DNA from: Escherichia phage outra
Sequence record: MN850645.1
DNA length: 64,000 nt
Reading direction: 5' to 3' (one strand)
A program made the position numbers and the translations under genes. Positions 2,651-51,594 of the stretch are shown here, in pieces. The stretch's first letter is position 1. Each line of letters begins with the position of its first letter. The notes under the pieces were generated by a model, which ran no database searches, had not been told where the DNA came from, and saw nothing but the letters and a program-made list of their open reading frames with translations.

Positions 2651-2659
2651 TATTTCTCC

Positions 2660-3250: not shown

Positions 3251-3797
3251 TATTTCTCCTGTTATAACATTTTCTACACATTGTTTCGTAAATGTCTTCT
3301 CCCCCAATAACAATCTGTTCTTTAGAGTCGATAAGTCTAGCATTAAAAATAGCCTTTCTTCCACATTTACAAATGCTTTTCAATTCTGTAATTGAATCTG
3401 CTATGGCTAATAACCGTTCAGAACCTTCAAACAATTCTGTAGCAAAATCTGTTTTAAGCCCATAACAGAATACAGGAATATCGTAATTATCTACCACATC
3501 TCCAAGAATGTCAACCATATCTTTAGTTAGGAATTGTGATTCGTCCACAAATACTGCATCTACTGGATTTTCTTTAAGCTGTGTATAAATTTCCAGCATA
3601 TCTTCTTTTGTTTTAACTGGTTTTGCTTCCTCTTTAATACCTATCCTAGAAGCAATAGCACAACCAGATCTGGTATCTAAAGCCGAAGTTAAAAGAAGAA
3701 CTTTCATATTTCTTTCTTTATAGTTCCAAGCTGTTTGTAAAAGATGTGTGCTTTTACCACTGTTCATTGGACTATATCGGAAATAAAGTTTAGCCAT
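3234..3797 (-). CDS. tdk: thymidine kinase
   Basis: MAKLYFRYSPMNSGKSTHLLQ... P-loop, FVDESQFL, CYGLKTDF, CKCGRKA zinc motif; near-colinear with E. coli Tdk. Confidence 0.9.
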   Translation of the reverse strand: MAKLYFRYSPMNSGKSTHLLQTAWNYKERNMKVLLLTSALDTRSGCAIASRIGIKEEAKPVKTKEDMLEIYTQLKENPVDAVFVDESQFLTKDMVDILGDVVDNYDIPVFCYGLKTDFATELFEGSERLLAIADSITELKSICKCGRKAIFNARLIDSKEQIVIGGEDIYETMCRKCYNRRNNASSM

Positions 3798-3842
3798 ATT
3801 TTCTCCTCTAACGCTCCCATTTGTGGGAGCGATAATACTTTA

Positions 3843-4418
3843 TTATTTCTCTTCGTCAAGAAGAATTTTTACTATTTGTTTTCTTCGCTTACTTACTGTA
3901 CTTTCTGGTGAAATTCCGCGCTTTGTTAGCCAATTTTTATCCTTTTTAGACTGGCATAAAGCTATCGCTTCTTTCTCCGCTTTTGCTTCCCTGAATGTCA
4001 TATCGTGCTTGTCAGCATAAGCTAGGATAGCGTTACACTGCTTACAAACTACACGCAGGTCGTCTTCTGTTACATACAATAGGCGTAAAACAAAACTTGG
4101 GATATCTTCATAACAGGTTAATGTACCTGCTGCATTAATATGGTCTACTTGAAAGTCTTTCATACCTCCTGTATGTCCACACAATTCACATTTACAATTC
4201 CAAACCTGTTTCGGTTTGCCTGTTTTCTTATCTAAAACTACATTGCCATCTTTGTCCAATCTATCGGCTTTAAATCGTACAGATTGGATCTTTTTTATCT
4301 TATTCGGGTGTCTCACCCATGCTTTCCTTAAGCAACCCCTTAAATATGTATAAAAGGCTGCTTGAGTTTTCCAAGGTGTTCCATCTCCCCAAATAACTTT
4401 AGGTTCTTTATTTTCCAA
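3843..4418 (-). CDS. HNH homing-endonuclease-like protein
   Basis: CKCELCGH...DHINAAG...CKQCN HNH/zinc-finger pattern. Confidence 0.65.
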   Translation of the reverse strand: MENKEPKVIWGDGTPWKTQAAFYTYLRGCLRKAWVRHPNKIKKIQSVRFKADRLDKDGNVVLDKKTGKPKQVWNCKCELCGHTGGMKDFQVDHINAAGTLTCYEDIPSFVLRLLYVTEDDLRVVCKQCNAILAYADKHDMTFREAKAEKEAIALCQSKKDKNWLTKRGISPESTVSKRRKQIVKILLDEEK

Positions 4419-5026: not shown

Positions 5027-5989
5027 TTAAATTCCAATAACAGTGTTTACACGTTTCTCTTTGCTACGCAAATTAACACGTCCACGAGACAGGCTATTAC
5101 ATGATGTGCATCTTAGCACTTGGAATGTACTAACCGCTGTTGTGTAAACCTTACCAGGAACAACTTCAAGGTGCTCTTTACCGCAACGAGGACAACGAAG
5201 TTTTTCATCGTCATAGAATGCAGATACGTTAGGGTGTTGTGGAATCCACGCACGAAGTTTGATGTAAAGATCTCTAAGAGAAACAACATCACCATCGTTG
5301 TATGTTTGCATACGGAAGAAGGCGTGTCTGTCTCCTTCACAACATGCTTTCCACAAAGGAAAACCTTCATTATCAAGTTTAAAGTTTTCTGTATCAAAAT
5401 ACAAACACATTTCTTTAAGCGCATTAGAAGGTAGTGCAAACTGCTTCTTAGCAGCCTTGAGTGTATCAATTACAACGTAGTGTGATGGTGGCTCCATACC
5501 GTGAAAAGCAAAACGTTGGTTAATATAAGCCTTATCAAACTTAATACCGTTGTGCGCGATCACAATATCTGCATCGTCAAGCAAGTGCCACAGATCTTGA
5601 CATAATTCCCAATCATCTGTATGATCTATGTCAAACAGAGGATAATTGCTAAGGTTCTTACCTTCTACTTCTCCTGTTTCTAAATCAGCAGATGAATAGG
5701 AAAGCAAGTAACCTCGACGAATAACTTGTTCAGGTGCAATAAAGGCTTTGAAACGTGAGAAGCTATACACAATCTCCGGTGCTGTCTCTACGTCAATAAT
5801 TTTAATTACTGGCCCACCTTTATCTTGCGGAGCACCGCGATGCGGTGAATTTACACGAGCTAAGTAATCATTTACTGTGCTCTTCTTAGTAGAACTTCCC
5901 AACACCTCTTGTGCAATCTTACGCGAAGAATAACCTTGTGCTTTCATAGATACAATCAAGGCTTTCTGTTCGTCTGTTAATTTACTCAA
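5027..5989 (-). CDS. DEDDh-type 3'-5' exonuclease with N-terminal HTH and C-terminal zinc ribbon (putative)
   Basis: Exo I-like IIDVETAPE, Exo II-like IAHNGIKFDKAYI, C-terminal CPRCGKEH...CTSCNS; N-terminal SSRKIAQEV HTH-like segment. Confidence 0.5.
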   Translation of the reverse strand: MSKLTDEQKALIVSMKAQGYSSRKIAQEVLGSSTKKSTVNDYLARVNSPHRGAPQDKGGPVIKIIDVETAPEIVYSFSRFKAFIAPEQVIRRGYLLSYSSADLETGEVEGKNLSNYPLFDIDHTDDWELCQDLWHLLDDADIVIAHNGIKFDKAYINQRFAFHGMEPPSHYVVIDTLKAAKKQFALPSNALKEMCLYFDTENFKLDNEGFPLWKACCEGDRHAFFRMQTYNDGDVVSLRDLYIKLRAWIPQHPNVSAFYDDEKLRCPRCGKEHLEVVPGKVYTTAVSTFQVLRCTSCNSLSRGRVNLRSKEKRVNTVIGI

Positions 5990-7020
5990 TGTTCCTCCTG
6001 CTCTGAAATATATGCTTGTAGCATACTTTCAAAAGTTGTTTCATCATTCGCCCAACGTTTCATATATACCAACTGAAAAATTGTCTCTATCCATTCATCA
6101 GTTGTCATTTCTACTTCTTCACCATCCCAAGAAGTAAATTTAACGCCATCTGGGAACCATTCATAATACTGATCTTTAACTGTCTGAAAAAGTTCAGCCT
6201 GTGTTTTACATTTGGAAATAAGATTAAAGCAAGTAATATCTCCAAACTTAACATCGAAATCTTGGTAAGGTCGAATACTATCTGTCTTATCGCCCATTAG
6301 CATTTGATAAGCTAACCAGTAACTACCCCAGCCCTTAATTTCTTTTTTCTTACCTTTTTCTACGATCCAGATATCACCAATAGATTCATCAATCAGAATA
6401 ATACAAGGATTTTTATAAACACCATCCTCTTTATAAAAGTTAAAGAGTAAACTTGGTGTGTGCAAGCTATCTTTGTCGATAGACGCTACAATATGAGAAA
6501 ACTTACCAGTTTCCTTGTAGGCTTTATACCCTGCATATCCATAAATTTCTAAAGCATCATCTGCCTCAATACCAGTAACAACGTCACCGTTATGTTTTTC
6601 AACTAGATAATCTTTAGTATCTGATAAATGGATTGGTCTTAAATCTGATCGTTCTGATTTATATTCTTTTGGCATTTTGAAAGAATGCCGGAAGGTTTTT
6701 CCTACCCCGATGACACCGCAATACTTTTGAAGTTTTAGGTGATCCATCATCTGGGTTATTTTTGTCTTTGCAGCTTGAAACGTAAAAGAAATATTATCTG
6801 GGACTATTTGAACATCTTTTATTTCAAAATCTTCTCTAGAGAACAACTTTTTACCAGCAGCTTCGCGTTGCGCGTTAAGTGCTCCTAACCATCCTCCAAT
6901 ATTTTTTGAAGATTTACCCCAAAAATCTGTTCTTGTTTCAAACTCTTTTACATTACCGGAAGCCTTATGTACAGCGTGGATTTTTCTTTGTTCTAAAGCT
7001 GAAGACGCTTGGAACGCCAC
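5986..7020 (-). CDS. FEN-like 5'-3' exonuclease / flap endonuclease (putative)
   Basis: VTGIEADDALEIYGY resembles the GxEADD motif of T5 D15 / T4 RNase H; downstream SIDKDSL and MGDKTDSIRPY resemble the second acidic cluster and H3TH region. Confidence 0.55.
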   Translation of the reverse strand: MAFQASSALEQRKIHAVHKASGNVKEFETRTDFWGKSSKNIGGWLGALNAQREAAGKKLFSREDFEIKDVQIVPDNISFTFQAAKTKITQMMDHLKLQKYCGVIGVGKTFRHSFKMPKEYKSERSDLRPIHLSDTKDYLVEKHNGDVVTGIEADDALEIYGYAGYKAYKETGKFSHIVASIDKDSLHTPSLLFNFYKEDGVYKNPCIILIDESIGDIWIVEKGKKKEIKGWGSYWLAYQMLMGDKTDSIRPYQDFDVKFGDITCFNLISKCKTQAELFQTVKDQYYEWFPDGVKFTSWDGEEVEMTTDEWIETIFQLVYMKRWANDETTFESMLQAYISEQEEH

Positions 7021-7112
7021 TTGATCGTAGTCTATTGCAAGAATTGTGTTCTCGTCAACATATTTGTGCAGGTCTTCCGGTTGGATTAAAATGTAACCGC
7101 TAATATTACCTC

Positions 7113-7325
7113 CTATTCATCATCTGAACTCTCTGTTGAGAATGTTCGTGTGTAGGGACACTGACGACTTGCAGAAACCTCTATAACCTTGTCGTACATA
7201 CCGTTAGAGTAAAAACAGTATTTTGTACTTCCAGAAACTTGTTCTCCAGAATTAATTAAAGTTATTTGACCAGCATAAGAATAAGAACTGATTACTAAAA
7301 GTAAACCGACAAGAAGTTTTTTCAT
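7113..7325 (-). CDS. small secreted protein (70 aa) with N-terminal signal peptide
   Basis: MKKLLVGLLLVISSYSYAG hydrophobic leader, then 50-aa mature region with 2 Cys; own RBS. Confidence 0.45.
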   Translation of the reverse strand: MKKLLVGLLLVISSYSYAGQITLINSGEQVSGSTKYCFYSNGMYDKVIEVSASRQCPYTRTFSTESSDDE

Positions 7326-7399
7326 GGTGTGTCTCCTTAAAAGCCCACCTAACTAAGTAGGTAGGCATATTAACACATATTAAATTAGTAAGTCAAGTA

Positions 7400-8284
7400 T
7401 TATTTTTGAATAGTTGACTTGATAAGGTCTTGCATAATACCACGGATTTCATTAAAGCACAGAAGGACAGATGCTTCAAAAGATCCTTCTTCATCATTAA
7501 AGTATTTAGGGAATTTAATACCACTCAACTTAAATTCTTTATCAACAATAAAGTTAACGAATCCGTCATATTCCAGACCAATGGCAACAACGTGCTTACC
7601 ATCTTCCATAAGTTCTACTGCACGAGATTCATAAAGTGACTCTTTACTCCATACAACCACACCTTCCGAATCTTCAAGTTTAATATAATTACCAAGGGTC
7701 AGTCGTTCAGCCTCATGTTCTTCTAAGATGGTATCAAAACCTTTAATAATGGCTTCTTCGTGTACACTAAACGGCAGAACTGGGAAAGTACCCAACACCT
7801 CACGAAGAAATACAGCAATATCTTCACTAATTTTCTTAGAACCATTAAGAACATAGGTAATACTGTTTTCAGTGTCTACAACAACATAGTTATAGAAATC
7901 ATCTGCCTCTGTTTCTGGAAGCAGAGAAAACACGATATCAGCCTCAATTGCTTTTTTACTTTCTTTGTCCAAGAAAAATTCTTTAGTAGGGTTTGCAGCA
8001 ATAAACTCTTGTTCCATCTCTTGGAGTTTTTCATTAAGAATGCGTTTAACTTTTTTCTTGTTAACTTTCTTAACAGATTGCCCTACTTTAATAACCTCTA
8101 AACCAGAGAACACTTTTACATAGGAACCATCATCTTCAAAACGAACAAGACCAATGGTATGTGCTTGTTGACCCTGTGCCACAACAAAATCCAGCGGTTT
8201 GTCTGTTACTGTGTTCAGTGCGGAAATAGACAGACCATCACCAGAAATCAGGGTTACGCAAGATTTGAAATTTTTAGCAAACAT
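7400..8284 (-). CDS. RdgC-like recombination-associated protein (putative)
   Basis: ~295 aa; segments FAKNFKSC, SLLPETEADDF and GTFPVLPFS parallel E. coli RdgC landmarks; start trimmed to ATG at 8284 (RBS GAGGAG). Confidence 0.45.
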   Translation of the reverse strand: MFAKNFKSCVTLISGDGLSISALNTVTDKPLDFVVAQGQQAHTIGLVRFEDDGSYVKVFSGLEVIKVGQSVKKVNKKKVKRILNEKLQEMEQEFIAANPTKEFFLDKESKKAIEADIVFSLLPETEADDFYNYVVVDTENSITYVLNGSKKISEDIAVFLREVLGTFPVLPFSVHEEAIIKGFDTILEEHEAERLTLGNYIKLEDSEGVVVWSKESLYESRAVELMEDGKHVVAIGLEYDGFVNFIVDKEFKLSGIKFPKYFNDEEGSFEASVLLCFNEIRGIMQDLIKSTIQK

Positions 8285-8294
8285 AGTTTTCTCC

Positions 8295-8573
8295 TCAAAT
8301 AACAACTACAAAATATTTTACGCCATCATATTCGACAATATGATCAGGATATTTAAATCCTTTATAAGATTTACCAAACAGACTAACAGCCTCATTAGCT
8401 TTGTTTTGCGGATTACTCAGCCACTGTTCTTCTGTGTAAAACTTAAACTCTGTTCTCTTACCTTCTTTTTCTAAACCAACAATTTCCTGTGTGATATCTT
8501 CAATACCTGCATTCTTCAAGGATTTGATTACCTGACGCAAACCGTGTTTAAAGATATCTTCTGCTGTTAACAT
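8295..8573 (-). CDS. hypothetical protein (92 aa)
   Basis: ORF track only. Confidence 0.35.
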   Translation of the reverse strand: MLTAEDIFKHGLRQVIKSLKNAGIEDITQEIVGLEKEGKRTEFKFYTEEQWLSNPQNKANEAVSLFGKSYKGFKYPDHIVEYDGVKYFVVVI

Positions 8574-8609
8574 AATACCTCCAATAAGCCCCCGAAGGGG
8601 CTTTATTTC

Positions 8610-9332
8610 TTAAGCAATGATTGCTGCGATATTAGGTTTAACAAAGGTAGATGGTTTCATAATTTTACCTTTGTCATCAAAGAATACGTACACCTTTTGA
8701 ACTTCGTTATATACAGCATGTACCCCAGTATAAGAACCTTCTGCACGATCTTTGCTTCGCATCTCGATAGCATCGCACTCTTTTTCAAGAGCTTCAATAA
8801 TATCCTTAGTTTCCCAAATAGCCAGGAGTTGCTTCTTGGTAGGATACTTGGACTCATTGCTATTCAACACTTCACGCATAACTTTCTTCTCGTTATAAAC
8901 AGAACGCACCAAAGTATCTCGTGCCATACGGGTAAGTGTAAGAGACATTAAGGCAAATTGCAAGTCATTTTCTACCATTTTATCAAATTCAATGATAACA
9001 TCGTAAATGTTTTCTGCCAGAACATCCCCTGTCGGCATTTCCAGAGCTTTATCAACACCTTCTTTACCAAAGAACATAAATGCCAGGTAGGATGCTACCA
9101 CAAAAATATCTGCTGCTGCATCAAGTAATTCAACGTGATCATTTTCCTGTGCTGCTGCTTGGAACTCTTTAAGTTCTTCTCGTACAAAAGAAAGTTGAGC
9201 TTCAAACATCTCTTGAGTAAATTCTGGAGTTACTCCACCACGTGCCTTAGCATTCCAAGCAACAATTTGATCGGCAGCTTTGATAAAGAAGCTATTGTCC
9301 ACTTTTACTTGTTTGAAAAAATTCTCGATCAT
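8610..9332 (-). CDS. MazG-like nucleoside triphosphate pyrophosphohydrolase domain protein (putative)
   Basis: N-terminal EELKEFQAAAQENDHVELLDAAADIFVV resembles the MazG/HisE EExxE...D metal-binding helix pair; C-terminal half unknown. Confidence 0.4.
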   Translation of the reverse strand: MIENFFKQVKVDNSFFIKAADQIVAWNAKARGGVTPEFTQEMFEAQLSFVREELKEFQAAAQENDHVELLDAAADIFVVASYLAFMFFGKEGVDKALEMPTGDVLAENIYDVIIEFDKMVENDLQFALMSLTLTRMARDTLVRSVYNEKKVMREVLNSNESKYPTKKQLLAIWETKDIIEALEKECDAIEMRSKDRAEGSYTGVHAVYNEVQKVYVFFDDKGKIMKPSTFVKPNIAAIIA

Positions 9333-9529: not shown

Positions 9530-10645
9530 TTACTCTGCTGGTTCCCAAGTACCTGGAATCATCTTACGTACACGTACCCCAACAGGCTTGGTAGGAATAC
9601 CTTCGTCTGAAAATTCTTCGTACTCTATTTCAACAAATTGACCAATAAGTGTCAAAGCATTTTCTTCTTTACGATAGTTAATGGTTTCATCTGAATCCTT
9701 ACGCATCAGGAATTCGACTACTTTACCATTTTCCATCTCGCCTGTCAATACCCCGTCACCATTTTTATCACGTTTTGCACTTACCACTTTAACTTCAAGC
9801 GTCTGACGTGGTTTACGTTTAATAACATCATAAGAACGTTTATCAAACTCGTAAACACCTTGTGCGTTACGATACACCACACCTTCCGCTTTTTCACGTA
9901 GAGCTTTTGCATAGAATTCATCAAACTGCTCTTGGTTTTCAATGTATTCTGTATGTACTACACAAATTAGTTCATCTAAACCTTTATCTTCAACAACTTC
10001 TTTTAGAGCAGCTAAAACTTGAACCCTCTTCTCAAATGGTACAGATGGCACAGGAACATCATATACATAGTATTTAAGAAGTGGTGTGTTAGCATTATGC
10101 TTTTTCCACGCACTATTAATTTGTTGAAGGCTAAGGACACCCAAACCAGCAAAAACTTCACCGTCAAGAGGATGACCAACTACTTCTTTAATGAAGGTTG
10201 GAATTTCTTCCCAGTGAGGTGGAAGTTTATATACCTCACCAGCTTTAGATAAACATTCACCTTGCATGTTAATCATTGAACGTAGACCATTCAATTTATA
10301 TTGTGCATAACCTGGGAACAAAACACGGTCAGCATAATCTTTATAATCCTGACATTTCATGGGTGTGGAAGGAACATGGTTTTCAGCTTCCTCTTTTGTT
10401 TTATAATACCCATTCTTAAGTTGCTTTGTCCATTTGGCAAGAGCTTCTATTTCAGCTTGTTCTTCTGCTGTTGTTTCATTGGAGCGACCAATATTTTTAG
10501 GTTCTGCCGTATAAGATTTGCTAGTGATCTTTCCACCTAATTGACCATGAGCAACAGTTACAACACTACCTTCGGTATAGACTGACCACTGTCTAATTTT
10601 ACCTGTAGAAGTTTTACCATATAATGTAGGATTAGTTTGTTTCAT
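9530..10645 (-). CDS. ATP-dependent DNA ligase
   Basis: Motif I KLNGLR (KxDG-type), ~370 aa; start moved to Met17 (10645) with GGAGG RBS, removing overlap with upstream ORF. Confidence 0.75.
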   Translation of the reverse strand: MKQTNPTLYGKTSTGKIRQWSVYTEGSVVTVAHGQLGGKITSKSYTAEPKNIGRSNETTAEEQAEIEALAKWTKQLKNGYYKTKEEAENHVPSTPMKCQDYKDYADRVLFPGYAQYKLNGLRSMINMQGECLSKAGEVYKLPPHWEEIPTFIKEVVGHPLDGEVFAGLGVLSLQQINSAWKKHNANTPLLKYYVYDVPVPSVPFEKRVQVLAALKEVVEDKGLDELICVVHTEYIENQEQFDEFYAKALREKAEGVVYRNAQGVYEFDKRSYDVIKRKPRQTLEVKVVSAKRDKNGDGVLTGEMENGKVVEFLMRKDSDETINYRKEENALTLIGQFVEIEYEEFSDEGIPTKPVGVRVRKMIPGTWEPAE

Positions 10646-10835
10646 CTCTAACCTCCAGTTGCGAAAGAACCCATTTAGCCATTTCAATTTCACCGTGTAG
10701 TCTGCCTAGTTCATAGGCATCATCAATATTACCACCAGTGTAATCATCCACCATAAAGTAAGGATCTTCACTACTGTTAGGCGCGTTTGCAATTCTCGTT
10801 AGTTCTTCAATAAATGTCATAGTTAACCTTACCAA
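10632..10835 (-). CDS. hypothetical protein (67 aa)
   Basis: ORF track only. Confidence 0.35.
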   Translation of the reverse strand: MVRLTMTFIEELTRIANAPNSSEDPYFMVDDYTGGNIDDAYELGRLHGEIEMAKWVLSQLEVRDETN

Positions 10836-11053
10836 TTATACACAAGAGTTTGAATTTCTTCCATCAAGTCTTCAAGATCTGTATCAACATATTCAGAAGA
10901 TGTTGCCATAAAGTATGTAATCATTGTAAACCCTTCCGAAGAAAGGGCATCAAGGATATCATTAAACATATCTTCCATTTCAGTATTCTCACCAAATGAG
11001 AATAACATTTGTTGATCTTCGCTTACACCTTTAACATAGATAGCTGTACTCAT
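10829..11053 (-). CDS. hypothetical acidic protein (74 aa)
   Basis: ORF track only. Confidence 0.35.
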   Translation of the reverse strand: MSTAIYVKGVSEDQQMLFSFGENTEMEDMFNDILDALSSEGFTMITYFMATSSEYVDTDLEDLMEEIQTLVYNW

Positions 11054-11056
11054 ATA

Positions 11057-11377
11057 TTAATCCTTAAGACGTTCATTTAAATCTGCAATAACATCACCTA
11101 AATCTTCACATTCCAGTGTTAATTCGGAAACTTGTCCACTCAAATAACAAACTTCTTCATTTAGATCTGAAATAATGTTTTCTAATGAATCTACTTGGTC
11201 ATCATATGAACGTTTTGTTTCTTCAAGTTCTTCCGTAAGATCATTAATCAAACGGAGCAAAGATAAGATATAACCGTCTCCTGTTTCGTTCCTCCACTCA
11301 CTTCCGTAGCGATAAATAATAATTTCACCATTATCGACTACTGTAAAATACTTACCTTCACCAGAATAAATTTCCAT
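11057..11377 (-). CDS. hypothetical coiled-coil protein (106 aa)
   Basis: ORF track; heptad-like LxxLxxE pattern. Confidence 0.35.
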   Translation of the reverse strand: MEIYSGEGKYFTVVDNGEIIIYRYGSEWRNETGDGYILSLLRLINDLTEELEETKRSYDDQVDSLENIISDLNEEVCYLSGQVSELTLECEDLGDVIADLNERLKD

Positions 11378-11386
11378 ACACTCTCC

Positions 11387-11791
11387 TTATTGTAGCTTAA
11401 GTGAACTGCGAAGACGTTTCTCTTGCTGATCACGAATATGTTGTGGAACCTCGTGAATTGAGTCGTTACCGTGCCTATTTTCAACAACTAAAGAGATAAC
11501 TTGATAACCAAACTCTTCGGCAAGAGTTAAATAAGGTTTAAGTTCTTTCTCTGTGGTTGAAGTGTTAGAGACAATAATCTTTTCAACACCATACTGCATA
11601 TATTTTTGTACTTTGACACGACACCATTGGTGTGCTTTATGGATATTCTCTTCCTTCCACTCATACACACCATCTTCAGTGTAGTGGTATTGATCTGCCT
11701 CACAAATAGGCCAATGATTTTCAGAAATAATTTCTGCTACTGTAGATTTACCTGCGCCTGAAACACCACGTAAAATGATAAGTTGTTTCAT
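11387..11791 (-). CDS. P-loop kinase (polynucleotide/nucleotide kinase-like)
   Basis: Walker A LRGVSGAGKSTVAE at N-terminus; 134 aa; immediately downstream of RNA-ligase-like gene. Confidence 0.5.
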   Translation of the reverse strand: MKQLIILRGVSGAGKSTVAEIISENHWPICEADQYHYTEDGVYEWKEENIHKAHQWCRVKVQKYMQYGVEKIIVSNTSTTEKELKPYLTLAEEFGYQVISLVVENRHGNDSIHEVPQHIRDQQEKRLRSSLKLQ

Positions 11792-12724
11792 TTAGCCTCC
11801 AAAGAAGTTTTCTATTTCTTTACGTCGCTCTTGTGGATCTAGAGCAGCCCATTGAACCTTCGTAAAATTATTTCGAAGCCATTCTAGCAAAGTATAATAT
11901 TCTTCGTCAACAATTTGTTTAGCATTTTTTGGGTTGTCCCAAATCATATCCCACTTCTTATTGCCACCACGCATAAGGAATTTCTTAGCAAGATAGTATG
12001 GTGACTTAATCTTTAAGAGTAAGTTAAACGGATAGTTTGTTTCACGAACAACAAAGCCTTCGTGTCTACAATGTTTAGACATTTCAACAACATCTGAAAA
12101 TTTAATCATCGGATAAACTTCAGGACGTTTAAACTTTGTAACAGATGCAATCCCATCAAGAACACCTTCAGGTAACATGAAACTTGTCCCATCAAGATTT
12201 TGAATTCTTGCTCCAATTAAGTATGCGCCTGGTTCTTCTTCGACAATATGTGGATCAGAAGGATCACAGATTTCAAAAAGGAAAGTTGCTTTTGCACTTT
12301 CTGTCCACTTAATGAAATACTCTATGTCGTCACACTCGGAAACAATACGGTTCTTTGCCATAATTGCAAAATCTGATTCTAGGCTCCCTGTTGTTGATAC
12401 AACAAGTTTCCCTTTGTACACACCTACAGATGCCATAAAACCGTTTACTTTACGGACAACATCTACAATTTCGTCTGCTGGAAGATCTGTACCATTTTCA
12501 AAACGATTAAAGATTTTAGTAAAAGGCCAAATAACAACATTGTCTTCTGAGTCAACAACCAACCCACGACAATCTAGAAGTCGTTTGTCAACGTTCCACA
12601 AATTATCCCAGAATACATTGTTTTTGTATTTAAGCACAGCAAGACCAGCATACTCTCCAGATTTAACTTCTTTTTTATGCACTAAACCTTTTGCAATCAG
12701 GTCATCACAATTGAACTTAGCCAT
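11792..12724 (-). CDS. RNA ligase-like nucleotidyltransferase (Rnl2-like, putative)
   Basis: Covalent nucleotidyltransferase motif I KVNGF (KxNG); 310 aa; flanked by phosphoesterase and kinase. Confidence 0.45.
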   Translation of the reverse strand: MAKFNCDDLIAKGLVHKKEVKSGEYAGLAVLKYKNNVFWDNLWNVDKRLLDCRGLVVDSEDNVVIWPFTKIFNRFENGTDLPADEIVDVVRKVNGFMASVGVYKGKLVVSTTGSLESDFAIMAKNRIVSECDDIEYFIKWTESAKATFLFEICDPSDPHIVEEEPGAYLIGARIQNLDGTSFMLPEGVLDGIASVTKFKRPEVYPMIKFSDVVEMSKHCRHEGFVVRETNYPFNLLLKIKSPYYLAKKFLMRGGNKKWDMIWDNPKNAKQIVDEEYYTLLEWLRNNFTKVQWAALDPQERRKEIENFFGG

Positions 12725-12725
12725 C

Positions 12726-13277
12726 TTAATCTCCTTTGATTATCTTATGATGGTCTACAACAACAATATCACGCTTATCCATAATAGAGATGATTTCGTC
12801 AAAATGCAAGATTTTACCGTGTGCATCCCAACCAACATCCAACATCTTCCCATACAAATGATCAGGGAATGATCCGTGAGAGTGTCCGTGTAGCATGATT
12901 GATCCATGCCCTTGTTTATTCCAGGCAGCCATAGGGTAATGGCTTAAGACGAAAAACAGCTTCTGATATTTCACTTCGTCATAATAAACCACTTCTCCAT
13001 ACTCTGCAAGCACTTTTCTGTGTTTACTGTAATCATGGTTCCCAACACAGTAAGTAATATCCCCTTGGAGACGGGAAGCAATCTTACGGGTATCTTCTTC
13101 AGTCCCGAAACAGAAGTCCCCAAGATGGTACATCTTTACTCCTGGTGTTGTGGCACATTTATTCCATGCTTCGATCAGTGCTTCTGTCATATGCTCCATA
13201 TCTTCCCACGGGCGATATTCAGGAGCAAACTCTCGGATACGTTTGTGCATAAAATGCAAATCACTTGTAATAAACAT
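12726..13277 (-). CDS. calcineurin-like metallophosphoesterase
   Basis: SDLHF...GDFCFG...GNHDY...GHSHG metal-binding motif series. Confidence 0.7.
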   Translation of the reverse strand: MFITSDLHFMHKRIREFAPEYRPWEDMEHMTEALIEAWNKCATTPGVKMYHLGDFCFGTEEDTRKIASRLQGDITYCVGNHDYSKHRKVLAEYGEVVYYDEVKYQKLFFVLSHYPMAAWNKQGHGSIMLHGHSHGSFPDHLYGKMLDVGWDAHGKILHFDEIISIMDKRDIVVVDHHKIIKGD

Positions 13278-13639
13278 TAGTATAATCCCTCGCTGAATAG
13301 TTCACTGTTGTGACCATTTCTTTCGTAGTTAATTTGTTTGGCGTTATCTGCAATGATATAAGCATCTTTTCGACTCCACCAATTGTAATACTGATCAATA
13401 AACCCTTGATTATCAGGTAAGCAAAACAGTTTATCGATCAATCCTGCATCTTTTAAAACATTAAGTTGTGCAGATAGTATAGGATTTGCATGCCTAACAC
13501 AAGGAATAATTAACTCTTCACCATTGTTGAGAATATACTTATTCGCAGCGCAGACTATAACACGTTGAGCATAGTGATCCTCACCAATCCAGGTAAGAGG
13601 TTGGTAACAAATATCATGTTGATTAGTAGCGCACATCAA
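13277..13639 (-). CDS. hypothetical protein (120 aa)
   Basis: ORF track only. Confidence 0.4.
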   Translation of the reverse strand: MMCATNQHDICYQPLTWIGEDHYAQRVIVCAANKYILNNGEELIIPCVRHANPILSAQLNVLKDAGLIDKLFCLPDNQGFIDQYYNWWSRKDAYIIADNAKQINYERNGHNSELFSEGLY

Positions 13640-13794
13640 TTTTCTCCATACTCTTTTAGTCTATCAGCGAAAAAACTGTAATCAGGAAGTAAAAGATCAT
13701 TACTCGTATCGCTCCAGTTCTCTTCCTCTCTATAGATAAAATGCCCTTCATCCTCTTCTTGCTCTGACCAAACTGAATAATGCATAATACCTAC

Positions 13795-14169
13795 TTAATA
13801 GTTAACACGTTTAATTTCAACACCATAGGATGAAATAAAATTTTCCTTAGCTAACATATATTTACCAGCAGCAGAAGGATTTGATGTATGAACATAGATA
13901 GTTTTAAGAGCATCCCATTCACCCGCGTACAACATACATTCTACATCCAAGAACGCATGATATCCTTCTTGATCTTCTCCAAGATCATTATCGAAGTGTA
14001 TCTCTGAGATAGTATTGAAATTATCTTCATCTGAAACAAAAGATGACCAATCCTCAAAAGATTTTAACCAAATGGCATCCTCATAACCATAATCTTTAGG
14101 ATCTCTTAAATCGTCTAACCAAAGAATTTTAGCCACTATCAACCTCCTTCCTGTTTCTCTTCTTTCCAA
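13795..14169 (-). CDS. hypothetical protein (124 aa)
   Basis: ORF track; ILWLDDLRDP / IHFDNDLGE segments of unknown significance. Confidence 0.4.
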   Translation of the reverse strand: MERRETGRRLIVAKILWLDDLRDPKDYGYEDAIWLKSFEDWSSFVSDEDNFNTISEIHFDNDLGEDQEGYHAFLDVECMLYAGEWDALKTIYVHTSNPSAAGKYMLAKENFISSYGVEIKRVNY

Positions 14170-16171: not shown

Positions 16172-17065
16172 ATGAAAGTTAGTATTCTACATGGTGTTGG
16201 CTGTTATGTTACTGATGTAGACGTTAAAGTCTTTACATTCTCTGGTGGAGAACAACATGTTCAACTAGACACGAATCTATCAGGTTTCAATCATGCTACA
16301 GACAGAATCTTACTCTCTTTAGAAGTAAGATCTGCTAAAGACTTGATGACTTTGGTTATGACTAAGAATGCATTGGACAATATGCTATATCATAAACCAT
16401 ATTGTGTTGATTTGCTCATGTTGTATGTGCCATATGCACGACAAGACAGAGTGTGTGAACCTGGGGAAGCATTCGGAGTTAAAGCATTTGCTTCTATAAT
16501 TAATTCATTAAATTTCTCACGTGTTATCGTTGCTGATCCACATAGTGATGTTACTCCAGCAGTGTTTGACAGACTCTGTGTAATATCTCAAGAAGAGATT
16601 GCTTACGAAACTTTAAAGTGGAAGTTACGTATGGAGAATTTTGCTCTTGTTAGCCCTGATGGTGGTGCTCTTAAGAAAATATTTAAATTATCTAAGAAAA
16701 TGTCTTTAGATGTGTTCTGTGCAGAGAAGGTTAGAGATACTGCAACAGGTGCTATTGTTCGTACAGACATTTCTGTACAGGATTTCAATAAACGTAACCT
16801 GATGATCGTAGATGATATCTGTGACGGCGGTAGAACTTTTATTGAATTGGCTAAAGTGCTACGTGCTCGTAACGCAGGTAAGATTGAGTTATATGTTACA
16901 CACGGTATCTTTTCTAAAGGTCTTAAAGAGTTAAGTGAGCACTTTGACTGCATTCATTCTCTTAATGTGTGGGAAGATAACATCCAAGAAGATTCCGGTG
17001 TTCTTGTTAAGAATCAGTCAGATTTGCAACAACAAATTGTATCTCCATACGTGTGGAATTTTTAA
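16172..17065 (+). CDS. ribose-phosphate pyrophosphokinase (Prs) homologue; candidate ADP-ribose pyrophosphokinase
   Basis: YVPYARQDRV (Prs Y.GYARQDR motif) and LMIVDDICDGGRTF (PRPP-binding loop); RBS AAGGAG. Confidence 0.8.
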   Translation: MKVSILHGVGCYVTDVDVKVFTFSGGEQHVQLDTNLSGFNHATDRILLSLEVRSAKDLMTLVMTKNALDNMLYHKPYCVDLLMLYVPYARQDRVCEPGEAFGVKAFASIINSLNFSRVIVADPHSDVTPAVFDRLCVISQEEIAYETLKWKLRMENFALVSPDGGALKKIFKLSKKMSLDVFCAEKVRDTATGAIVRTDISVQDFNKRNLMIVDDICDGGRTFIELAKVLRARNAGKIELYVTHGIFSKGLKELSEHFDCIHSLNVWEDNIQEDSGVLVKNQSDLQQQIVSPYVWNF

Positions 17066-17136: not shown

Positions 17137-18870
17137 ATGAATATTTTTGCACCTTTTGCTACTGATTGGTATAAACCTGGTCACAAGCAGATGTACAACC
17201 AAAATACAAAACTCATTTTCTCTAATTTAACTCCTCGTAATGATAAAAACTTTGCACACTATGCAGATCGTGAAGCACGTGGTGTGATTGTTTTAGGTAT
17301 TCGTCGAGCAGTCACTGATGCTCTTGTAATTATGTGGGACAGCTTCTTTAAAATGTCTCGTAGTGCAGCAGTAAATAAATTTTATCGTATGTCTAAAAAT
17401 GCATTAGGTGCTTCTGCTCCTTCTGCTGAATGTTGGGGAGAATTGCACGATTTAGGTTATCTTCCGCTAGAAGTTCGATCTCTGCCAGAAGGTGTTTTGT
17501 GTCCTATTGGTGTTCCTGTGTTTACTGTGCATAATACTTTAGAAAAATTCTTTTGGTTAACTAACTATGTGGAAACACTCTTGTCAGATGAAACTTGGAA
17601 GACAATGACTAATGCCACAGCAGCTTTTCAGTATAAGCGTATCGCTATGGCGTATGCGATGGCAACGTGTGATAACATTGATCACGTTAATTTCCAGTGT
17701 CATGACTTTAGCCTACGTGGTTTAAGCAATATCGAAGATGGTTATAAGAGTGGTATCGCTCATTTGGCATCTTTCACAGGTACAGATAATATTCTGGCTA
17801 TTGAAACTGTGCATGATTACTATGGTATTGATTATGATCAGTTTGTTGCAGGTTCTATTCCGGCAACAGAACATTCAGTAGCAACGACTAACATTGGAGC
17901 TATTGTTGAAGATCTAAAGGAACATTTTCCACGTCTTAAAGCTGATGTAGATTGGCTTCGTTATGTAGCAGAAAAAGAGTTTCTTCGTCGTTATATTGAA
18001 GAAATTGTTCCAGAAGGTTTTTGTTCATATGTAGCAGATTCTTATGATTACTGGACTGTATTGACTAACATTCTGGTAGAGTTGAAAGATTCCATCATGT
18101 CACGAAATGGTCGTCTTGTTATTCGTCCAGATTCAGGAGATCCGGTTAAAGTTGTTGCAGGGTACAATGTTGAATCTTTTGATAACTATGAAGATCTTTT
18201 AAATAATGGTATTGCTACAGCCACTGAAGTAGTACATTTGGCTGATGTTAATAAGTATTACAATGTTCTTCAGGATTGCAGTGTTGCTGATTGTATTGAT
18301 GAAACTTATGAGATTCCTTATTGTGAAGCAGTAGGTTCTATTCAAATCCTTTGGGAAGTGTTTGGCGGCACTATCAATCGAAAAGGCTACAAGGTTCTTG
18401 ATCAGCACATCGGTATGATTTATGGTGATTCTATTACTGTTGAACGAGAACACGAAATCTTACGCCGACTGAAGAAGAAAGGCTTTGCTGCTTCCAATAT
18501 TGTATTTGGTGTTGGTAGTTATACTTATCAGTTCAATACACGAGATACTTTTGGTTTTGCTGTTAAAGCAACAGGTAGTATCATCGGTGAACACGAAATT
18601 TTGGTAAGTAAGGAGCCTAAAACTGATCCTGGTAAACGCTCTGCAAAAGGTTTTATTAAGGTTGTTAAGGATACAAATGGTAAACTTTCTCTTGTGGATA
18701 ATCTTTCTTTTAAAGATATCCAAGATGAAGACAATGAGTTAAAAGTTATCTTCAGGGATGGTACGGTTATTACACCACAAGTAGAAGGACGTGATGAAAC
18801 ATTTACTGATATCCGTAACCGTGTTGATGTAGAGGTTCTTCGTACTATGGGAACCATCCAGGTTGACTAA
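17137..18870 (+). CDS. nicotinamide phosphoribosyltransferase (Nampt/NadV) homologue
   Basis: FATDWYKPGHKQMY N-terminal Nampt signature, 577 aa; RBS AAGGAG. Confidence 0.8.
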   Translation: MNIFAPFATDWYKPGHKQMYNQNTKLIFSNLTPRNDKNFAHYADREARGVIVLGIRRAVTDALVIMWDSFFKMSRSAAVNKFYRMSKNALGASAPSAECWGELHDLGYLPLEVRSLPEGVLCPIGVPVFTVHNTLEKFFWLTNYVETLLSDETWKTMTNATAAFQYKRIAMAYAMATCDNIDHVNFQCHDFSLRGLSNIEDGYKSGIAHLASFTGTDNILAIETVHDYYGIDYDQFVAGSIPATEHSVATTNIGAIVEDLKEHFPRLKADVDWLRYVAEKEFLRRYIEEIVPEGFCSYVADSYDYWTVLTNILVELKDSIMSRNGRLVIRPDSGDPVKVVAGYNVESFDNYEDLLNNGIATATEVVHLADVNKYYNVLQDCSVADCIDETYEIPYCEAVGSIQILWEVFGGTINRKGYKVLDQHIGMIYGDSITVEREHEILRRLKKKGFAASNIVFGVGSYTYQFNTRDTFGFAVKATGSIIGEHEILVSKEPKTDPGKRSAKGFIKVVKDTNGKLSLVDNLSFKDIQDEDNELKVIFRDGTVITPQVEGRDETFTDIRNRVDVEVLRTMGTIQVD

Positions 18871-51033: not shown

Positions 51034-51042
51034 GGAGAGTCT

Positions 51043-51594
51043 ATGAAAAAAGACGTTATTTTTACAGGTTTTGAATTGTATGAACCAGAATTAACAGAAG
51101 AAAATATTCTTTATCTTTCTGTTGGTGGTGGTTTTTTGCAAGACAAAGATGGTAACGACTGGTATCAGCTTCAAAAAACTTTGATGGTAGAATATCCCGA
51201 CGCTTATTTTATTACCTTAGATGATAATAATATTGTACGTGGTGCTACTAAAGATGTTACTACCTATTTCCCTGCCGGACAATCTATTTTAGTTACATAT
51301 AATGTACCAGATAAAATAGAAGATGAAAGTAACATTGGCTCTTGGCAATATGTTGAAGGTAAGTTTGTTCCTCACAATAATCTTGCTATTGAAGATGCTA
51401 CTCTTAAGTTAGAAAAGGAGCTAACTTGGGCTACGAATCAAGTGTCTGCGATTCAAGATTTAGAGGAATTACAAGGTTTATCTGAAGAACAAAAAGATTG
51501 GTTAGGAAAAGTTAAACTCTATCGTGCAACATTAATTCAAATTAACGTTGAAGATGCACCTAATATAACTTGGCCTACAAGACCTAAGAAATAG
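51043..51594 (+). CDS. tail fibre assembly/accessory protein (putative)
   Basis: Position between fibre genes. Confidence 0.35.
   Translation: MKKDVIFTGFELYEPELTEENILYLSVGGGFLQDKDGNDWYQLQKTLMVEYPDAYFITLDDNNIVRGATKDVTTYFPAGQSILVTYNVPDKIEDESNIGSWQYVEGKFVPHNNLAIEDATLKLEKELTWATNQVSAIQDLEELQGLSEEQKDWLGKVKLYRATLIQINVEDAPNITWPTRPKK

What the first reader, a model, noticed from the sequence alone, without database searches (positions are those of the whole stretch)
11387..13277. Three-gene cassette resembling an RNA (tRNA) repair system
Contiguous, translationally coupled genes encode a metallophosphoesterase (GDxxD/GNHD/GHxH motifs), a KxNG nucleotidyltransferase consistent with an RNA ligase, and a P-loop kinase. 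Together these supply the 3'-end healing, 5'-end phosphorylation and sealing needed to repair tRNAs cut by host anticodon nucleases, as T4 Pnk/Rnl1 do but with split domains. The phage also carries a large tRNA array and a CCA-adding-like nucleotidyltransferase (60910-61503), which fits a theme of protecting the tRNA pool.
Basis: partly seen in the sequence, partly recalled or inferred. Interest (0 to 1): 0.7.

Follow-up and report, generated by a model that had tools for sequence, protein, structure and literature searches.

The report
Phage RNA heal-and-seal repair gene cluster
A phi92-like E. coli phage carries adjacent genes for an RNA ligase, a small polynucleotide kinase and a metal-dependent phosphoesterase, with a nearby cyclic-phosphate-processing domain protein. 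Together they most likely mend RNAs, probably tRNAs, cut by host defence nucleases; the arrangement is real but already annotated and predicted in the literature.

Summary
Three tightly packed minus-strand genes lie at 13277-12726, 12724-11792 and 11791-11387, separated by 1-nt and 0-nt gaps with Shine-Dalgarno sites.

- **Source:** the window is a Justusliebigvirus (phi92-like coliphage, 98.5% identical to phage alia).
- **Ligase (310 aa):** an Rnl1-family RNA ligase, not a DNA ligase. It passes the Pfam threshold, its profile hits T4 Rnl1, and its model best matches Trl1/T4 Rnl1.
- **Kinase (134 aa):** its family profile best matches solved polynucleotide kinases (CthPnkp, Pnkp1, Trl1, T4 Pnk). 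It co-occurs almost one-to-one with the ligase across phages.
- **Phosphoesterase (183 aa):** it keeps all metal ligands, but its only close relative is the uncharacterised Aquifex aq_1665. It is not Pnkp-like or lambda-phosphatase-like, so its 3'-end-healing role rests on gene context alone.
a cREC "cyclic-phosphate processing" protein lies two genes upstream (13795-14169).

Iyer et al. 2022 described this neighbourhood (T4-like ligase, cREC, kinase, MazG, sometimes a calcineurin-like phosphoesterase, sirtuin) in phages rV5 and Mydo. GenBank records of near-identical phages already say RNA ligase, phosphoesterase and polynucleotide kinase.

Verdict: a real, plausible RNA repair cluster that has never been tested biochemically. 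Novelty is low to moderate.

The parts
12726..13277 (-). Standalone dinuclear metallophosphoesterase (183 aa) of the aq_1665 type; candidate 2',3'-cyclic-phosphate / 3'-phosphate end-healing enzyme
11792..12724 (-). Short (310 aa) Rnl1-family ATP-dependent RNA ligase; predicted adenylylated lysine K92
   Evidence: Pfam RNA_lig_T4_1 at 5e-15, 56 bits against a 28-bit cutoff. phrog_562 at 9e-69. The family profile hits T4 Rnl1 2c5u at 9e-10. AF2 pLDDT 91. Foldseek top hits are Trl1 ligase domains and T4 Rnl1 at E about 1e-12; DNA ligases score 1e-4 or worse.
11387..11791 (-). Minimal (134 aa) P-loop kinase of the polynucleotide-kinase clade; candidate 5'-OH kinase
   Evidence: Pfam AAA_33 at 5e-10. 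phrog_2071 at 5e-58 and phrog_505 'polynucleotide kinase' at 1e-9. The family profile's top PDB hits are the CthPnkp kinase (5e-5), Pnkp1, the Trl1 kinase and T4 Pnk (1.4e-4), each aligned over most or all of the domain. K15, T17 and D33 are invariant and R106 is nearly invariant.
13795..14169 (-). cREC (cyclic-phosphate processing receiver-like) domain protein; start codon uncertain. Predicted in the literature to open 2',3'-cyclic phosphates or ADPR cyclic phosphates
   Evidence: Pfam PF20274 cREC_REC at 8.7e-14, 52 bits against a 27-bit cutoff. phrog_1479 at 4e-31. Homologues sit directly after the ligase in the rV5-like phage JeffSchatz and in Proteus phage Mydo. In many other records the match lies next to an 'RNA ligase' annotation.
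8610..9332 (-). MazG-like nucleotide pyrophosphohydrolase; a looser member of the published neighbourhood with an unclear role
   Evidence: Pfam PRA-PH at 3e-7 and phrog_671 at 6e-28. 30% identical to the protein two genes after the ligase-cREC pair (after the sirtuin) in the rV5-like phage JeffSchatz. MazG is listed in the published neighbourhood.

Best explanation
This is a phage heal-and-seal RNA repair cluster. [quoted passage not shown]

Proposed steps:
1. The cyclic phosphate is opened and removed to give a 3'-OH. This is done by the metallophosphoesterase, possibly together with the upstream cREC protein.
2. The 134-aa kinase transfers a phosphate from an NTP to the 5'-OH.
3. The 310-aa Rnl1-type ligase is adenylylated on K92, transfers AMP to the 5'-phosphate and seals the break.

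Shown here by homology, structure prediction and residue conservation:
- The ligase is an Rnl1/Trl1-type RNA ligase with an intact active site.
- The kinase belongs to the polynucleotide-kinase clade.
- The phosphoesterase has a complete dinuclear metal site.

Inferred only from conserved gene context and from analogy with T4 Pnkp/Rnl1 and bacterial Pnkp:
- The phosphoesterase (and cREC) act on RNA 3' ends.
- tRNA is the substrate.
- The purpose is to counter anticodon nucleases.
For: **Ligase**
- It passes the Pfam Rnl1 family threshold.
- Its family profile aligns to T4 Rnl1 at 9e-10.
- That alignment puts R53, K70, F72, K92, G95, E151, E222, G223, K238 and K240 opposite T4 R54, K75, F77, K99, G102, E159, E227, G228, K240 and K242. 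All ten are invariant in 41 homologues. That these are the essential T4 residues is from my own knowledge of the Shuman-lab mutagenesis.
- The best structural matches are Trl1 ligase domains and T4 Rnl1, followed by Rnl3, Rnl2 and Rnl5.

**Kinase**
- Its top PDB profile hits are all polynucleotide kinases, aligned over most or all of the domain. Other kinases match only at the P-loop.
- Ligase and kinase have nearly identical genus counts in 50,697 phage records: Escherichia 198/197, Pseudomonas 177/173, Klebsiella 36/36, Acinetobacter 24/24, Aeromonas 13/13.

**The trio as a unit**
- The three genes lie within about 2 kb of each other despite rearrangements. This holds in Justusliebigvirus, Vequintavirus, Mydovirus, Pakpunavirus, Thalassavirus and Saclayvirus, and in metagenomic contig L013; L015 carries the phosphoesterase and ligase before the contig ends.
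- Fusobacterium phage protein FNU2_90 (738 aa) fuses a kinase, a metallophosphoesterase and an Rnl1 ligase. It sits beside a tRNA array.
- The Listeria phage LP-064 homologue of the phosphoesterase sits among RtcB, another RNA ligase, and NADAR and HAD genes.

**Context and precedent**
- cREC is linked to the ligase in many phages.
- The neighbourhood is a published prediction (PMC9503650 section 3.7.3; PMC7824862).
- The window has 16 tRNA genes and a CCA-enzyme-like nucleotidyltransferase.
Against: - No activity has been measured for any member of these three subfamilies, as far as the searched literature shows.
- The phosphoesterase's only close structural relative has unknown function. It shows no specific similarity to the RNA-healing CthPnkp or lambda-phosphatase clade, nor to the phosphoesterase module of the fused FNU2_90 protein.
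- The phosphoesterase occurs in about twice as many phage records as the ligase or kinase (1395 vs 756 and 625). These include Kayvirus, where it sits near NAD-reconstitution genes with no ligase or kinase nearby, and Bacillus phage Troll, where it sits among replication and recombination genes.
- The kinase lacks the equivalent of T4 Pnk R38; it has H36, which is not conserved. Its E-values against solved kinases are modest (5e-5 to 1e-4).
- The ligase has T112 where T4 Rnl1 has K119.
- Its C-terminal helical module is about 70 aa, against about 130 aa left after motif V in the 375-residue T4 chain. That this T4 region sets tRNA specificity is from my own knowledge. tRNA specificity therefore cannot be inferred.
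- It falls far below the NCBIfam T4 RnlA equivalog cutoff (20.6 vs 242 bits).
Confidence: 0.62

Rival explanations
1. The ligase and kinase do repair RNA, but the metallophosphoesterase is not the RNA 3'-end healing enzyme. It would instead hydrolyse a small nucleotide. Candidates are a cyclic (oligo)nucleotide defence signal, a 2',3'-cNMP, or an ADP-ribose derivative such as ADPR cyclic phosphate or ADPR-1''-phosphate. That role would serve counter-defence or feed NAD+ reconstitution. RNA 3'-end healing would then fall to cREC, possibly with the distal sirtuin, as Iyer et al. proposed.
For: - The phosphoesterase is much more widespread than the ligase or kinase.
- In Kayvirus it lies three small genes upstream of the PRPP-synthetase-like/NAMPT-like (NARP1-type) pair, with no ligase or kinase there.
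- NARP1-type genes flank the cluster in the window, PAK_P1, Vibrio GRLPWR, Acinetobacter phiAbaA1, Mydo and contig L013.
- One metagenomic homologue sits near a NADAR gene.
- Its nearest characterised structural neighbours (YfcE, MJ0936, LpxH) act on small phosphodiester or pyrophosphate substrates.
- Iyer et al. allow that the associated phosphoesterases may process ADPR>P rather than RNA ends.
Against: - The one phage phosphatase shown to extend NARP1 is a Macro-domain protein, not a metallophosphoesterase.
- The phosphoesterase is translationally coupled to the ligase in this window.
- It stays within about 2 kb of the ligase and kinase in six phage genera.
- Metallophosphoesterase modules are fused to the kinase and ligase in FNU2_90 and in bacterial Pnkp.
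- In Listeria phage LP-064 its neighbours are RNA repair genes.
Confidence: 0.2
2. The cluster processes RNA for the phage's own purposes rather than reversing host anticodon-nuclease damage. Examples would be maturing or recycling phage tRNAs or other transcripts, or repairing collateral damage from phage-induced RNA decay.
For: - The ligase lacks the long T4 Rnl1 C-terminal region, which from my own knowledge sets tRNA specificity in T4.
- The cluster lies in a long block of replication and nucleotide-metabolism genes on one strand, not in an obvious anti-defence island.
- No cognate host nuclease is known for these phages.
Against: - All 16 phage tRNAs were called as ordinary tRNA genes by ARAGORN.
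- The only experimentally established role for a phage kinase-phosphatase plus Rnl1 pair is countering PrrC (established knowledge of T4; reviewed).
- The cluster co-locates with other counter-defence modules, the NARP1-type genes.
Confidence: 0.08
3. The kinase and phosphoesterase clean up DNA ends for the ATP-dependent DNA ligase encoded 700 bp downstream. This would make the cluster a DNA repair or anti-restriction module.
For: - An ATP-dependent DNA ligase lies at 9530-10693 on the same strand.
- A DNA ligase is again close to the cluster in the rV5-like phage, Mydo and contig L013.
- T4 Pnk acts on DNA as well as RNA (established knowledge).
Against: - The kinase tracks the RNA ligase, not the DNA ligase, in both phyletic distribution and adjacency.
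- PAK_P1, the Vibrio phage and the Acinetobacter phage keep the trio with no DNA ligase in the region fetched.
- This reading gives the Rnl1-type ligase no role.
Confidence: 0.06

Closest known systems
Phage T4 Pnkp + Rnl1 tRNA repair pathway (counters the PrrC anticodon nuclease)
   Same: - Same logic: 5'-kinase, 3'-end healing, then an Rnl1-family ligase.
- The ligase is a true homologue of T4 Rnl1, with ten essential active-site residues conserved.
- The kinase is a distant homologue of the T4 Pnk kinase domain, with the P-loop, the D35 equivalent and a likely R126 equivalent.
   Different: - There is no HAD/DxDxT phosphatase domain; a standalone, unrelated metallophosphoesterase stands in its place.
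- The kinase is a separate 134-aa protein and lacks the R38 equivalent.
- The ligase is 310 aa rather than 374 aa, with a much shorter C-terminal module.
- It has T112 where T4 has K119.
- It fails the T4 RnlA equivalog cutoff.
Bacterial Pnkp (Clostridium thermocellum Pnkp-Hen1 system): one polypeptide with kinase, metallophosphoesterase and ligase
   Same: - Same three chemistries, including a dinuclear metallophosphoesterase for 2',3'-end healing (PMC3675462 and PMC2190708 abstracts).
- The kinase family profile's best solved match is the CthPnkp kinase domain.
- A phage protein with this fused architecture and an Rnl1-type ligase domain exists: Fusobacterium phage FNU2_90.
   Different: - Here the three are separate genes in the order phosphoesterase, ligase, kinase.
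- No Hen1 methyltransferase partner was seen.
Sirtuin-centred, predicted NAD+-dependent RNA repair neighbourhood of phages rV5 and Mydo (Iyer, Burroughs, Anantharaman & Aravind, Viruses 2022, PMC9503650)
   Same: - The window has the T4-like ligase, cREC, nucleotide kinase, MazG and calcineurin-like phosphoesterase named in that paper.
- The Mydo proteins are 58% (ligase), 71% (kinase), 51% (cREC) and 39% (phosphoesterase) identical to the window's.
   Different: - No sirtuin gene lies in the cluster or anywhere in the 64-kb window.
- In the related phage muut the Sir2 gene is about 32 kb from the cluster.
- cREC is separated from the ligase by the phosphoesterase and two other ORFs, and the phosphoesterase is translationally coupled to the ligase.
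Aquifex aeolicus aq_1665 (PDB 1XM7)
   Different: It is a structural-genomics protein of unknown function, so it says nothing about substrate.

Membership tests
Rnl1 (T4 RnlA-type) RNA ligase family, Pfam PF09511 | Scores above the curated family threshold | tested here: met
   56.3 bits against a 28.3-bit gathering score, E 5.4e-15, covering profile positions 2-227 of 227.
Rnl1 (T4 RnlA-type) RNA ligase family, Pfam PF09511 | Covalent nucleotidyltransferase motifs I, III, IV and V, plus the Rnl1-specific upstream residues (T4 R54, K75, F77) | tested here: met
   K92/G95, E151, E222-G223 and K238/K240, plus R53, K70 and F72. These align to the T4 residues and are invariant in 41 homologues.
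Rnl1 (T4 RnlA-type) RNA ligase family, Pfam PF09511 | T4 K119 equivalent (essential in T4 Rnl1, from my own knowledge of the published mutagenesis) | tested here: not met
   The aligned residue is T112, within an invariant S-T-T-G motif.
Rnl1 (T4 RnlA-type) RNA ligase family, Pfam PF09511 | Fold closest to solved Rnl1/Trl1 ligases rather than DNA ligases or capping enzymes | tested here: met
   Model pLDDT 91. Foldseek gives 6n0v, 5tt6, 9qw7, 2c5u and 9do4 at E 5e-13 to 6e-12 with TM 0.60-0.64. The best DNA ligase hit is E 1.7e-4 with TM about 0.4.
Rnl1 (T4 RnlA-type) RNA ligase family, Pfam PF09511 | Orthology with T4 RnlA (NCBIfam TIGR02308 equivalog) and the T4-type C-terminal tRNA-specificity domain | tested here: not met
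   20.6 bits against a 242-bit cutoff. Only about 70 helical residues follow motif V, against about 130 in T4.
Rnl1 (T4 RnlA-type) RNA ligase family, Pfam PF09511 | ATP-dependent sealing of 3'-OH/5'-phosphate RNA ends | not testable with these tools
   Needs a biochemical assay.
5'-OH polynucleotide kinase clade of P-loop kinases (T4 Pnk, CthPnkp and Trl1 kinase domains) | Walker A P-loop and the catalytic aspartate (T4 D35) | tested here: met
   G9-x4-G14-K15-S16-T17 and D33. G14, K15, T17 and D33 are invariant in 33 homologues. D33 aligns to T4 D35.
5'-OH polynucleotide kinase clade of P-loop kinases (T4 Pnk, CthPnkp and Trl1 kinase domains) | Arginine that holds the phosphate 3' of the acceptor nucleotide (T4 R38) | tested here: not met
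   The aligned position is H36, which varies in the family. An invariant R8 next to the P-loop might substitute, but this was not tested.
5'-OH polynucleotide kinase clade of P-loop kinases (T4 Pnk, CthPnkp and Trl1 kinase domains) | Lid arginine (T4 R126) in an R-G...V-P context | tested here: inconclusive
   The nearly invariant E104-N105-R106-H107-G108...H113-x-V115-P116 resembles T4 K-R126-G-T-K-A-V-P. I aligned this by eye and from the profile alignment; no structural model was made.
5'-OH polynucleotide kinase clade of P-loop kinases (T4 Pnk, CthPnkp and Trl1 kinase domains) | Best domain-wide matches are polynucleotide kinases rather than (d)NMP or sugar kinases | tested here: met
   The top profile hits are 4gp7 (5e-5), 4xrp, 9d8a and 1ly1 (1.4e-4), aligned over most or all of the domain. 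Adenylate, thymidylate and gluconate kinases match only residues 3-40. PHROG 'polynucleotide kinase' scores 1e-9 against 1e-4 for dNMP kinase, the latter at the P-loop only.
Pnkp/lambda-phosphatase clade of metallophosphoesterases (RNA 2',3'-phosphatase) | Dinuclear metal-binding motifs of the calcineurin-like superfamily | tested here: met
   D6, H8, D54, N80, H81, H113, H132 and H134 are invariant in 46 homologues.
Pnkp/lambda-phosphatase clade of metallophosphoesterases (RNA 2',3'-phosphatase) | Specific sequence or structural affinity to CthPnkp phosphatase or lambda phosphatase | tested here: not met
T4 Pnkp (bifunctional kinase-HAD phosphatase) | C-terminal DxDxT acylphosphatase domain | tested here: not met
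   The kinase ORF ends at residue 134 and has only AAA_33-type matches. None of the ORFs scanned between 10829 and 15762 has a HAD-domain match.
cREC (PF20274) cyclic-phosphate processing receiver-like domain | Scores above the curated threshold and keeps the acidic receiver-type residues | tested here: met
   52.4 bits against a 27-bit cutoff, E 8.7e-14. D19-D20, D60/D62 and T95-S96 sit at the expected strand ends; this is my reading of the sequence. Activity has never been shown (PMC9503650).
Sirtuin-centred phage RNA repair neighbourhood (PMC9503650, type 2) | A sirtuin gene linked to the ligase, cREC and kinase | tested here: not met
   tBLASTn with the Mydo and rV5-like sirtuins finds nothing in the 64-kb window. 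In Justusliebigvirus muut, Sir2 is about 32 kb from the cluster. The other listed components are present.

The most novel reading that the evidence does not exclude
The aq_1665-type metallophosphoesterase and the cREC protein, both biochemically uncharacterised, could together form a previously undemonstrated route for healing RNA 3' ends. cREC would open the 2',3'-cyclic phosphate and the phosphoesterase would remove the resulting phosphate. That route would differ from the HAD (T4), HD (RM378), 2H/Tpt1 (Trl1) and lambda-phosphatase-type (bacterial Pnkp) solutions. Alternatively, the phosphoesterase may link RNA repair to the adjacent NARP1-type NAD+ reconstitution genes by recycling ADP-ribose phosphate by-products. 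The region would then be an integrated counter-defence island.
Probability: 0.2. Interest if true: 0.6.

Novelty: new member of a known kind. Interest (0 to 1): 0.3.

Why it matters
tRNA-cleaving defence systems are common in E. coli, and phage repair of the damage is understood experimentally only for T4 Pnkp and Rnl1. This cluster recurs in hundreds of medium-sized phages, including rV5-like, phi92-like, PAK_P1-like and T5-like Vibrio phages, some of which are used in therapy.

It is built from three or four enzyme subfamilies that nobody has assayed:
- a short Rnl1;
- a 134-aa polynucleotide-kinase-like kinase;
- an aq_1665-type phosphoesterase;
- cREC.

Characterising them would give a function to a structural-genomics orphan, test the cREC prediction, and show which host defences these phages can neutralise. 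As a genome-scan finding, however, it restates existing annotation and a published comparative-genomics prediction.

Tried and rejected
- **dNMP or other small-molecule kinase for the 134-aa protein: rejected.** Matches to dNMP, thymidylate, adenylate and gluconate kinases cover only the P-loop. Polynucleotide kinases align over most or all of the domain.
- **DNA ligase or capping enzyme for the 310-aa protein: rejected.** A separate ATP-dependent DNA ligase is encoded at 9530-10693.
- **The phosphoesterase as the published NARP1-associated 'phage phosphatase' (Adpp): rejected.** Adpp is a Macro-domain protein.
- **The 120-aa ORF that overlaps the phosphoesterase start (13277-13639) as a fourth component: rejected.** It is a T4 Arn.3-like protein found in 1536 phage records, mostly T4-like and Vi1-like phages. 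No ligase or kinase homologue was listed from any T4-like or Vi1-like record.
- **A sirtuin in the cluster: none found in the window**.
- **Promoter and terminator scan to delimit an operon: uninformative.** It found 30 promoter-like sites against 28.6 expected, and no convincing terminator inside the cluster.
- **Single-sequence PDB search with the ligase: no hits**. Only the family profile reached T4 Rnl1.
- **Burroughs & Aravind 2016 (NAR) on RNA repair systems: not retrievable**. Whether it already lists this trio was not checked.
- **Literature searches for experiments on these proteins: nothing found**.
Full report
**What is there**

The window is a 64-kb piece of a Justusliebigvirus, a phi92-like E. 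coli myovirus of the Stephanstirmvirinae. Region 11000-13700 is 98.5% identical to Escherichia phage alia and 97.6% identical to phi92.

- 13277-12726: 183 aa.
- 12724-11792: 310 aa.
- 11791-11387: 134 aa.

They are packed end to end. The phosphoesterase stop and the ligase ATG are one base apart, with AAGGAG upstream. The ligase stop abuts the kinase ATG, with GGAGG upstream.

**The ligase**

- The 310-aa protein passes the Pfam threshold for the T4 Rnl1 family (PF09511, E 5e-15).
- A single-sequence search of PDB found nothing. A profile of 41 homologues hit T4 Rnl1 at 9e-10.
- That alignment places R53, K70, F72, K92, G95, E151, E222, G223, K238 and K240 opposite the T4 residues R54, K75, F77, K99, G102, E159, E227, G228, K240 and K242. 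From my own knowledge of the T4 mutagenesis, these are the essential T4 residues.
- T4 K119 is replaced by an invariant threonine, T112.
- The AlphaFold model (pLDDT 91) best matches fungal Trl1 ligase domains and T4 Rnl1 (E about 1e-12, TM 0.60-0.64). Rnl3, Rnl2 and Rnl5 come next. DNA ligases appear only at E 1e-4 or worse.
- A bona fide ATP-dependent DNA ligase is encoded separately at 9530-10693.

The protein is not an orthologue of T4 RnlA: it scores 20.6 bits against a 242-bit NCBIfam cutoff. Only about 70 helical residues follow motif V. tRNA specificity cannot be inferred from the sequence.

**The kinase**

- The 134-aa protein is an AAA_33-type P-loop protein.
- It matches phrog_505 'polynucleotide kinase' at 1e-9. 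Its match to dNMP kinase is 1e-4 and covers only the P-loop.
- A profile of 33 homologues ranks solved polynucleotide kinases first, each aligned over most or all of the domain: the CthPnkp kinase domain (5e-5), Pnkp1, a Trl1 kinase domain and T4 Pnk (1.4e-4). Other kinases match only residues 3-40.
- The P-loop and D33 (T4 D35) are invariant, and R106 is nearly invariant in a T4 R126-like R-G...V-P context. The T4 R38 position is a variable histidine.

The E-values are modest, so this assignment is good but not certain.

**The phosphoesterase**

- The 183-aa protein has every metal ligand of the calcineurin-like superfamily, and its model is confident (pLDDT 95).

Homology therefore does not reveal the substrate.

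**Evidence that the genes work together**

- Across 50,697 phage records the ligase (756 records) and the kinase (625) have almost identical genus counts. The difference is mostly 129 Streptomyces phage records, whose linked kinase is too divergent to detect.
- The three genes stay within about 2 kb of each other through several rearrangements:

| Phage group or contig | Arrangement |
|---|---|
| Justusliebigvirus (this window) | phosphoesterase, ligase, kinase |
| Vequintavirus (rV5-like) | phosphoesterase and kinase divergent from ligase and cREC |
| Mydovirus (Proteus phage Mydo) | phosphoesterase, two ORFs, ligase, cREC, kinase, one ORF, Sir2, DNA ligase |
| Pakpunavirus (PAK_P1) | phosphoesterase, three ORFs, ligase, kinase |
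| Thalassavirus (T5-like Vibrio phage) | ligase, kinase, phosphoesterase |
| Saclayvirus (Acinetobacter phage) | ligase, kinase, two ORFs, phosphoesterase |
| Metagenomic contig L013 | phosphoesterase, two ORFs, ligase, one ORF, kinase |
| Metagenomic contig L015 | phosphoesterase, one ORF, ligase (contig ends) |

- Fusobacterium phage FNU2 encodes a 738-aa protein with kinase, Metallophos and RNA_lig_T4_1 domains, next to a tRNA array. Its kinase and ligase modules are detectably homologous to the window's. Its phosphoesterase module is not.
- In Listeria phage LP-064 the homologous phosphoesterase sits among RtcB, a second RNA ligase, and NADAR and HAD genes.

**Evidence that weakens the phosphoesterase link**

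- The phosphoesterase occurs in 1395 records, including Staphylococcus, Enterococcus, Bacillus and many Vibrio phages from which no ligase or kinase hits were listed.
- In Kayvirus it lies just upstream of a PRPP-synthetase-like/NAMPT-like pair, with no RNA repair genes nearby.
- In Bacillus phage Troll it lies among replication and recombination genes.
- In Vibrio phage D13 and an Enterococcus phage the context is uninformative.

Two genes upstream of the phosphoesterase, at 13795-14169, is a cREC protein (Pfam PF20274, 'cyclic-phosphate processing receiver domain', E 9e-14, above threshold). Its homologues sit directly after the ligase in the rV5-like phage and in Mydo. In many other phage records the match lies next to an 'RNA ligase' annotation.

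cREC was predicted, but never shown, to open 2',3'-cyclic phosphates on RNA or cyclic ADPR phosphates (PMC7824862; PMC9503650).

The ORF between cREC and the phosphoesterase (13277-13639) is a T4 Arn.3-like protein. It is widespread in T4-like phages, so I do not count it as a component.

**What is already known**

[quoted passage not shown] They propose that it cleans up and ligates RNA ends bearing 2',3'-cyclic phosphates, with the sirtuin acting like KptA.

The window matches that description, including a MazG-like gene at 8610-9332. The exception is the sirtuin. None is found in the 64-kb window, and in the related phage muut the Sir2 gene lies about 32 kb from the cluster.

GenBank records of near-identical phages already label these genes:
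- 'RNA ligase', 'putative phosphoesterase' and 'polynucleotide kinase' in BASEL phage Bas62.
- 'putative RNA ligase/RNA repair' in other records.

I found no experimental work on any of these subfamilies.

**Most likely mechanism**

A host ribonuclease cuts tRNA, leaving a 2',3'-cyclic phosphate and a 5'-OH.
1. The phosphoesterase, perhaps with cREC, converts the 3' end to 3'-OH. This step is inferred from context.
2. The kinase phosphorylates the 5'-OH. This is inferred from family membership.
3. The ligase is adenylylated at K92 and seals the break. The enzyme class is well supported; the substrate is inferred.

I give this model about 0.6. The main rival, at about 0.2, keeps the ligase and kinase in RNA repair but assigns the phosphoesterase to a small-molecule substrate. 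That substrate would be a nucleotide signal or an ADP-ribose phosphate, and the assignment rests on the enzyme's wider distribution and its recurrent proximity to NARP1-type genes. The only proven NARP1-associated phosphatase is a Macro-domain protein, so this rival has no direct support either. Minor rivals are an RNA-processing role unrelated to defence and a DNA-end-processing role alongside the adjacent DNA ligase.

**Verdict**

The finding is real and its central interpretation holds, with three caveats:
- The 'split T4 Pnkp' framing is wrong in detail.
- The weakest leg, the phosphoesterase as end-healer, rests on context alone.
- The cluster is both larger than stated and already predicted and annotated.

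It is a new member of a known, computationally described kind. Its main value is as a target for biochemistry.

Noticed in passing
window 16172-17065 (+) and 17137-18870 (+): A PRPP-synthetase-like gene (phrog_619, 1e-90) and a NAMPT-like gene (PF04095, 4e-38; phrog_448) sit divergently about 3 kb from the cluster. The pair resembles the two-gene NARP1 NAD+ reconstitution pathway (Adps + Namat; bioRxiv 10.1101/2024.02.11.579819). The same kind of pair lies next to the RNA repair genes in PAK_P1, Acinetobacter phiAbaA1 and Proteus Mydo. A PRPP-synthetase-like gene alone appears at the edge of the fetched region in Vibrio GRLPWR and contig L013. In Kayvirus the pair lies next to the phosphoesterase alone.
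   Followed up: partly
window 13277-13639 (-): A 120-aa ORF overlaps the phosphoesterase start (TAATG). It is a T4 Arn.3-like protein (phrog_839) found in 1536 phage records. It is often mislabelled 'anti-restriction nuclease', and its function is unknown.
   Followed up: partly
window 60910-61524 (-): A 204-aa nucleotidyltransferase has a GGAVRD...DIDIY motif. Its PolyA_pol/CCA-enzyme head-domain match is below threshold (E 0.0018), and it matches phrog_1614 at 1e-34. It has only the head domain, so whether it adds CCA to tRNA is open.
   Followed up: partly
window 9530-10693 (-) and 8610-9332 (-): An ATP-dependent DNA ligase (387 aa) and a MazG-like pyrophosphohydrolase (240 aa) lie downstream on the same strand. 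Both recur near the ligase and kinase in rV5-like phages; in Mydo only the DNA ligase was identified.
   Followed up: partly
related genomes, e.g. NC_052657.1 (muut) 50779-51579; outside the window: Justusliebigvirus phages carry a Sir2-like gene about 32 kb from the RNA repair cluster. In Mydo, PVP-SE1 and rV5-like phages the Sir2 gene is adjacent to the cluster.
   Followed up: partly
window 8586-8603: A perfect GC-rich hairpin, AAGCCCCCGAAGGGGCTT, with T-runs on both strands sits just below the MazG-like gene. It may be a bidirectional terminator that closes the leftward gene block.
   Followed up: no
window 1679-4418 (-): A nucleotide-salvage block holds a ThyX-like protein (Thy1, 4e-9), an NT5C-like 5'-nucleotidase (below threshold) and thymidine kinase (1e-54). 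RNase H-like and RdgC-like genes lie at 5027-8305.
   Followed up: no
phage database records MG065645, MG065639, MG065635 and others: Records named 'Campylobacter phage' (host C. jejuni) are 89-96% identical at the protein level to these E. coli phage genes. The host labels look doubtful.
   Followed up: no
L005 1735-3951 (Fusobacterium phage FNU2, gene FNU2_90): A 738-aa protein fusing kinase, metallophosphoesterase and Rnl1-type ligase domains (phrog_8238 architecture) is annotated only as 'putative metallophosphoesterase'. It sits beside a five-tRNA array and is a phage counterpart of bacterial Pnkp.
   Followed up: partly
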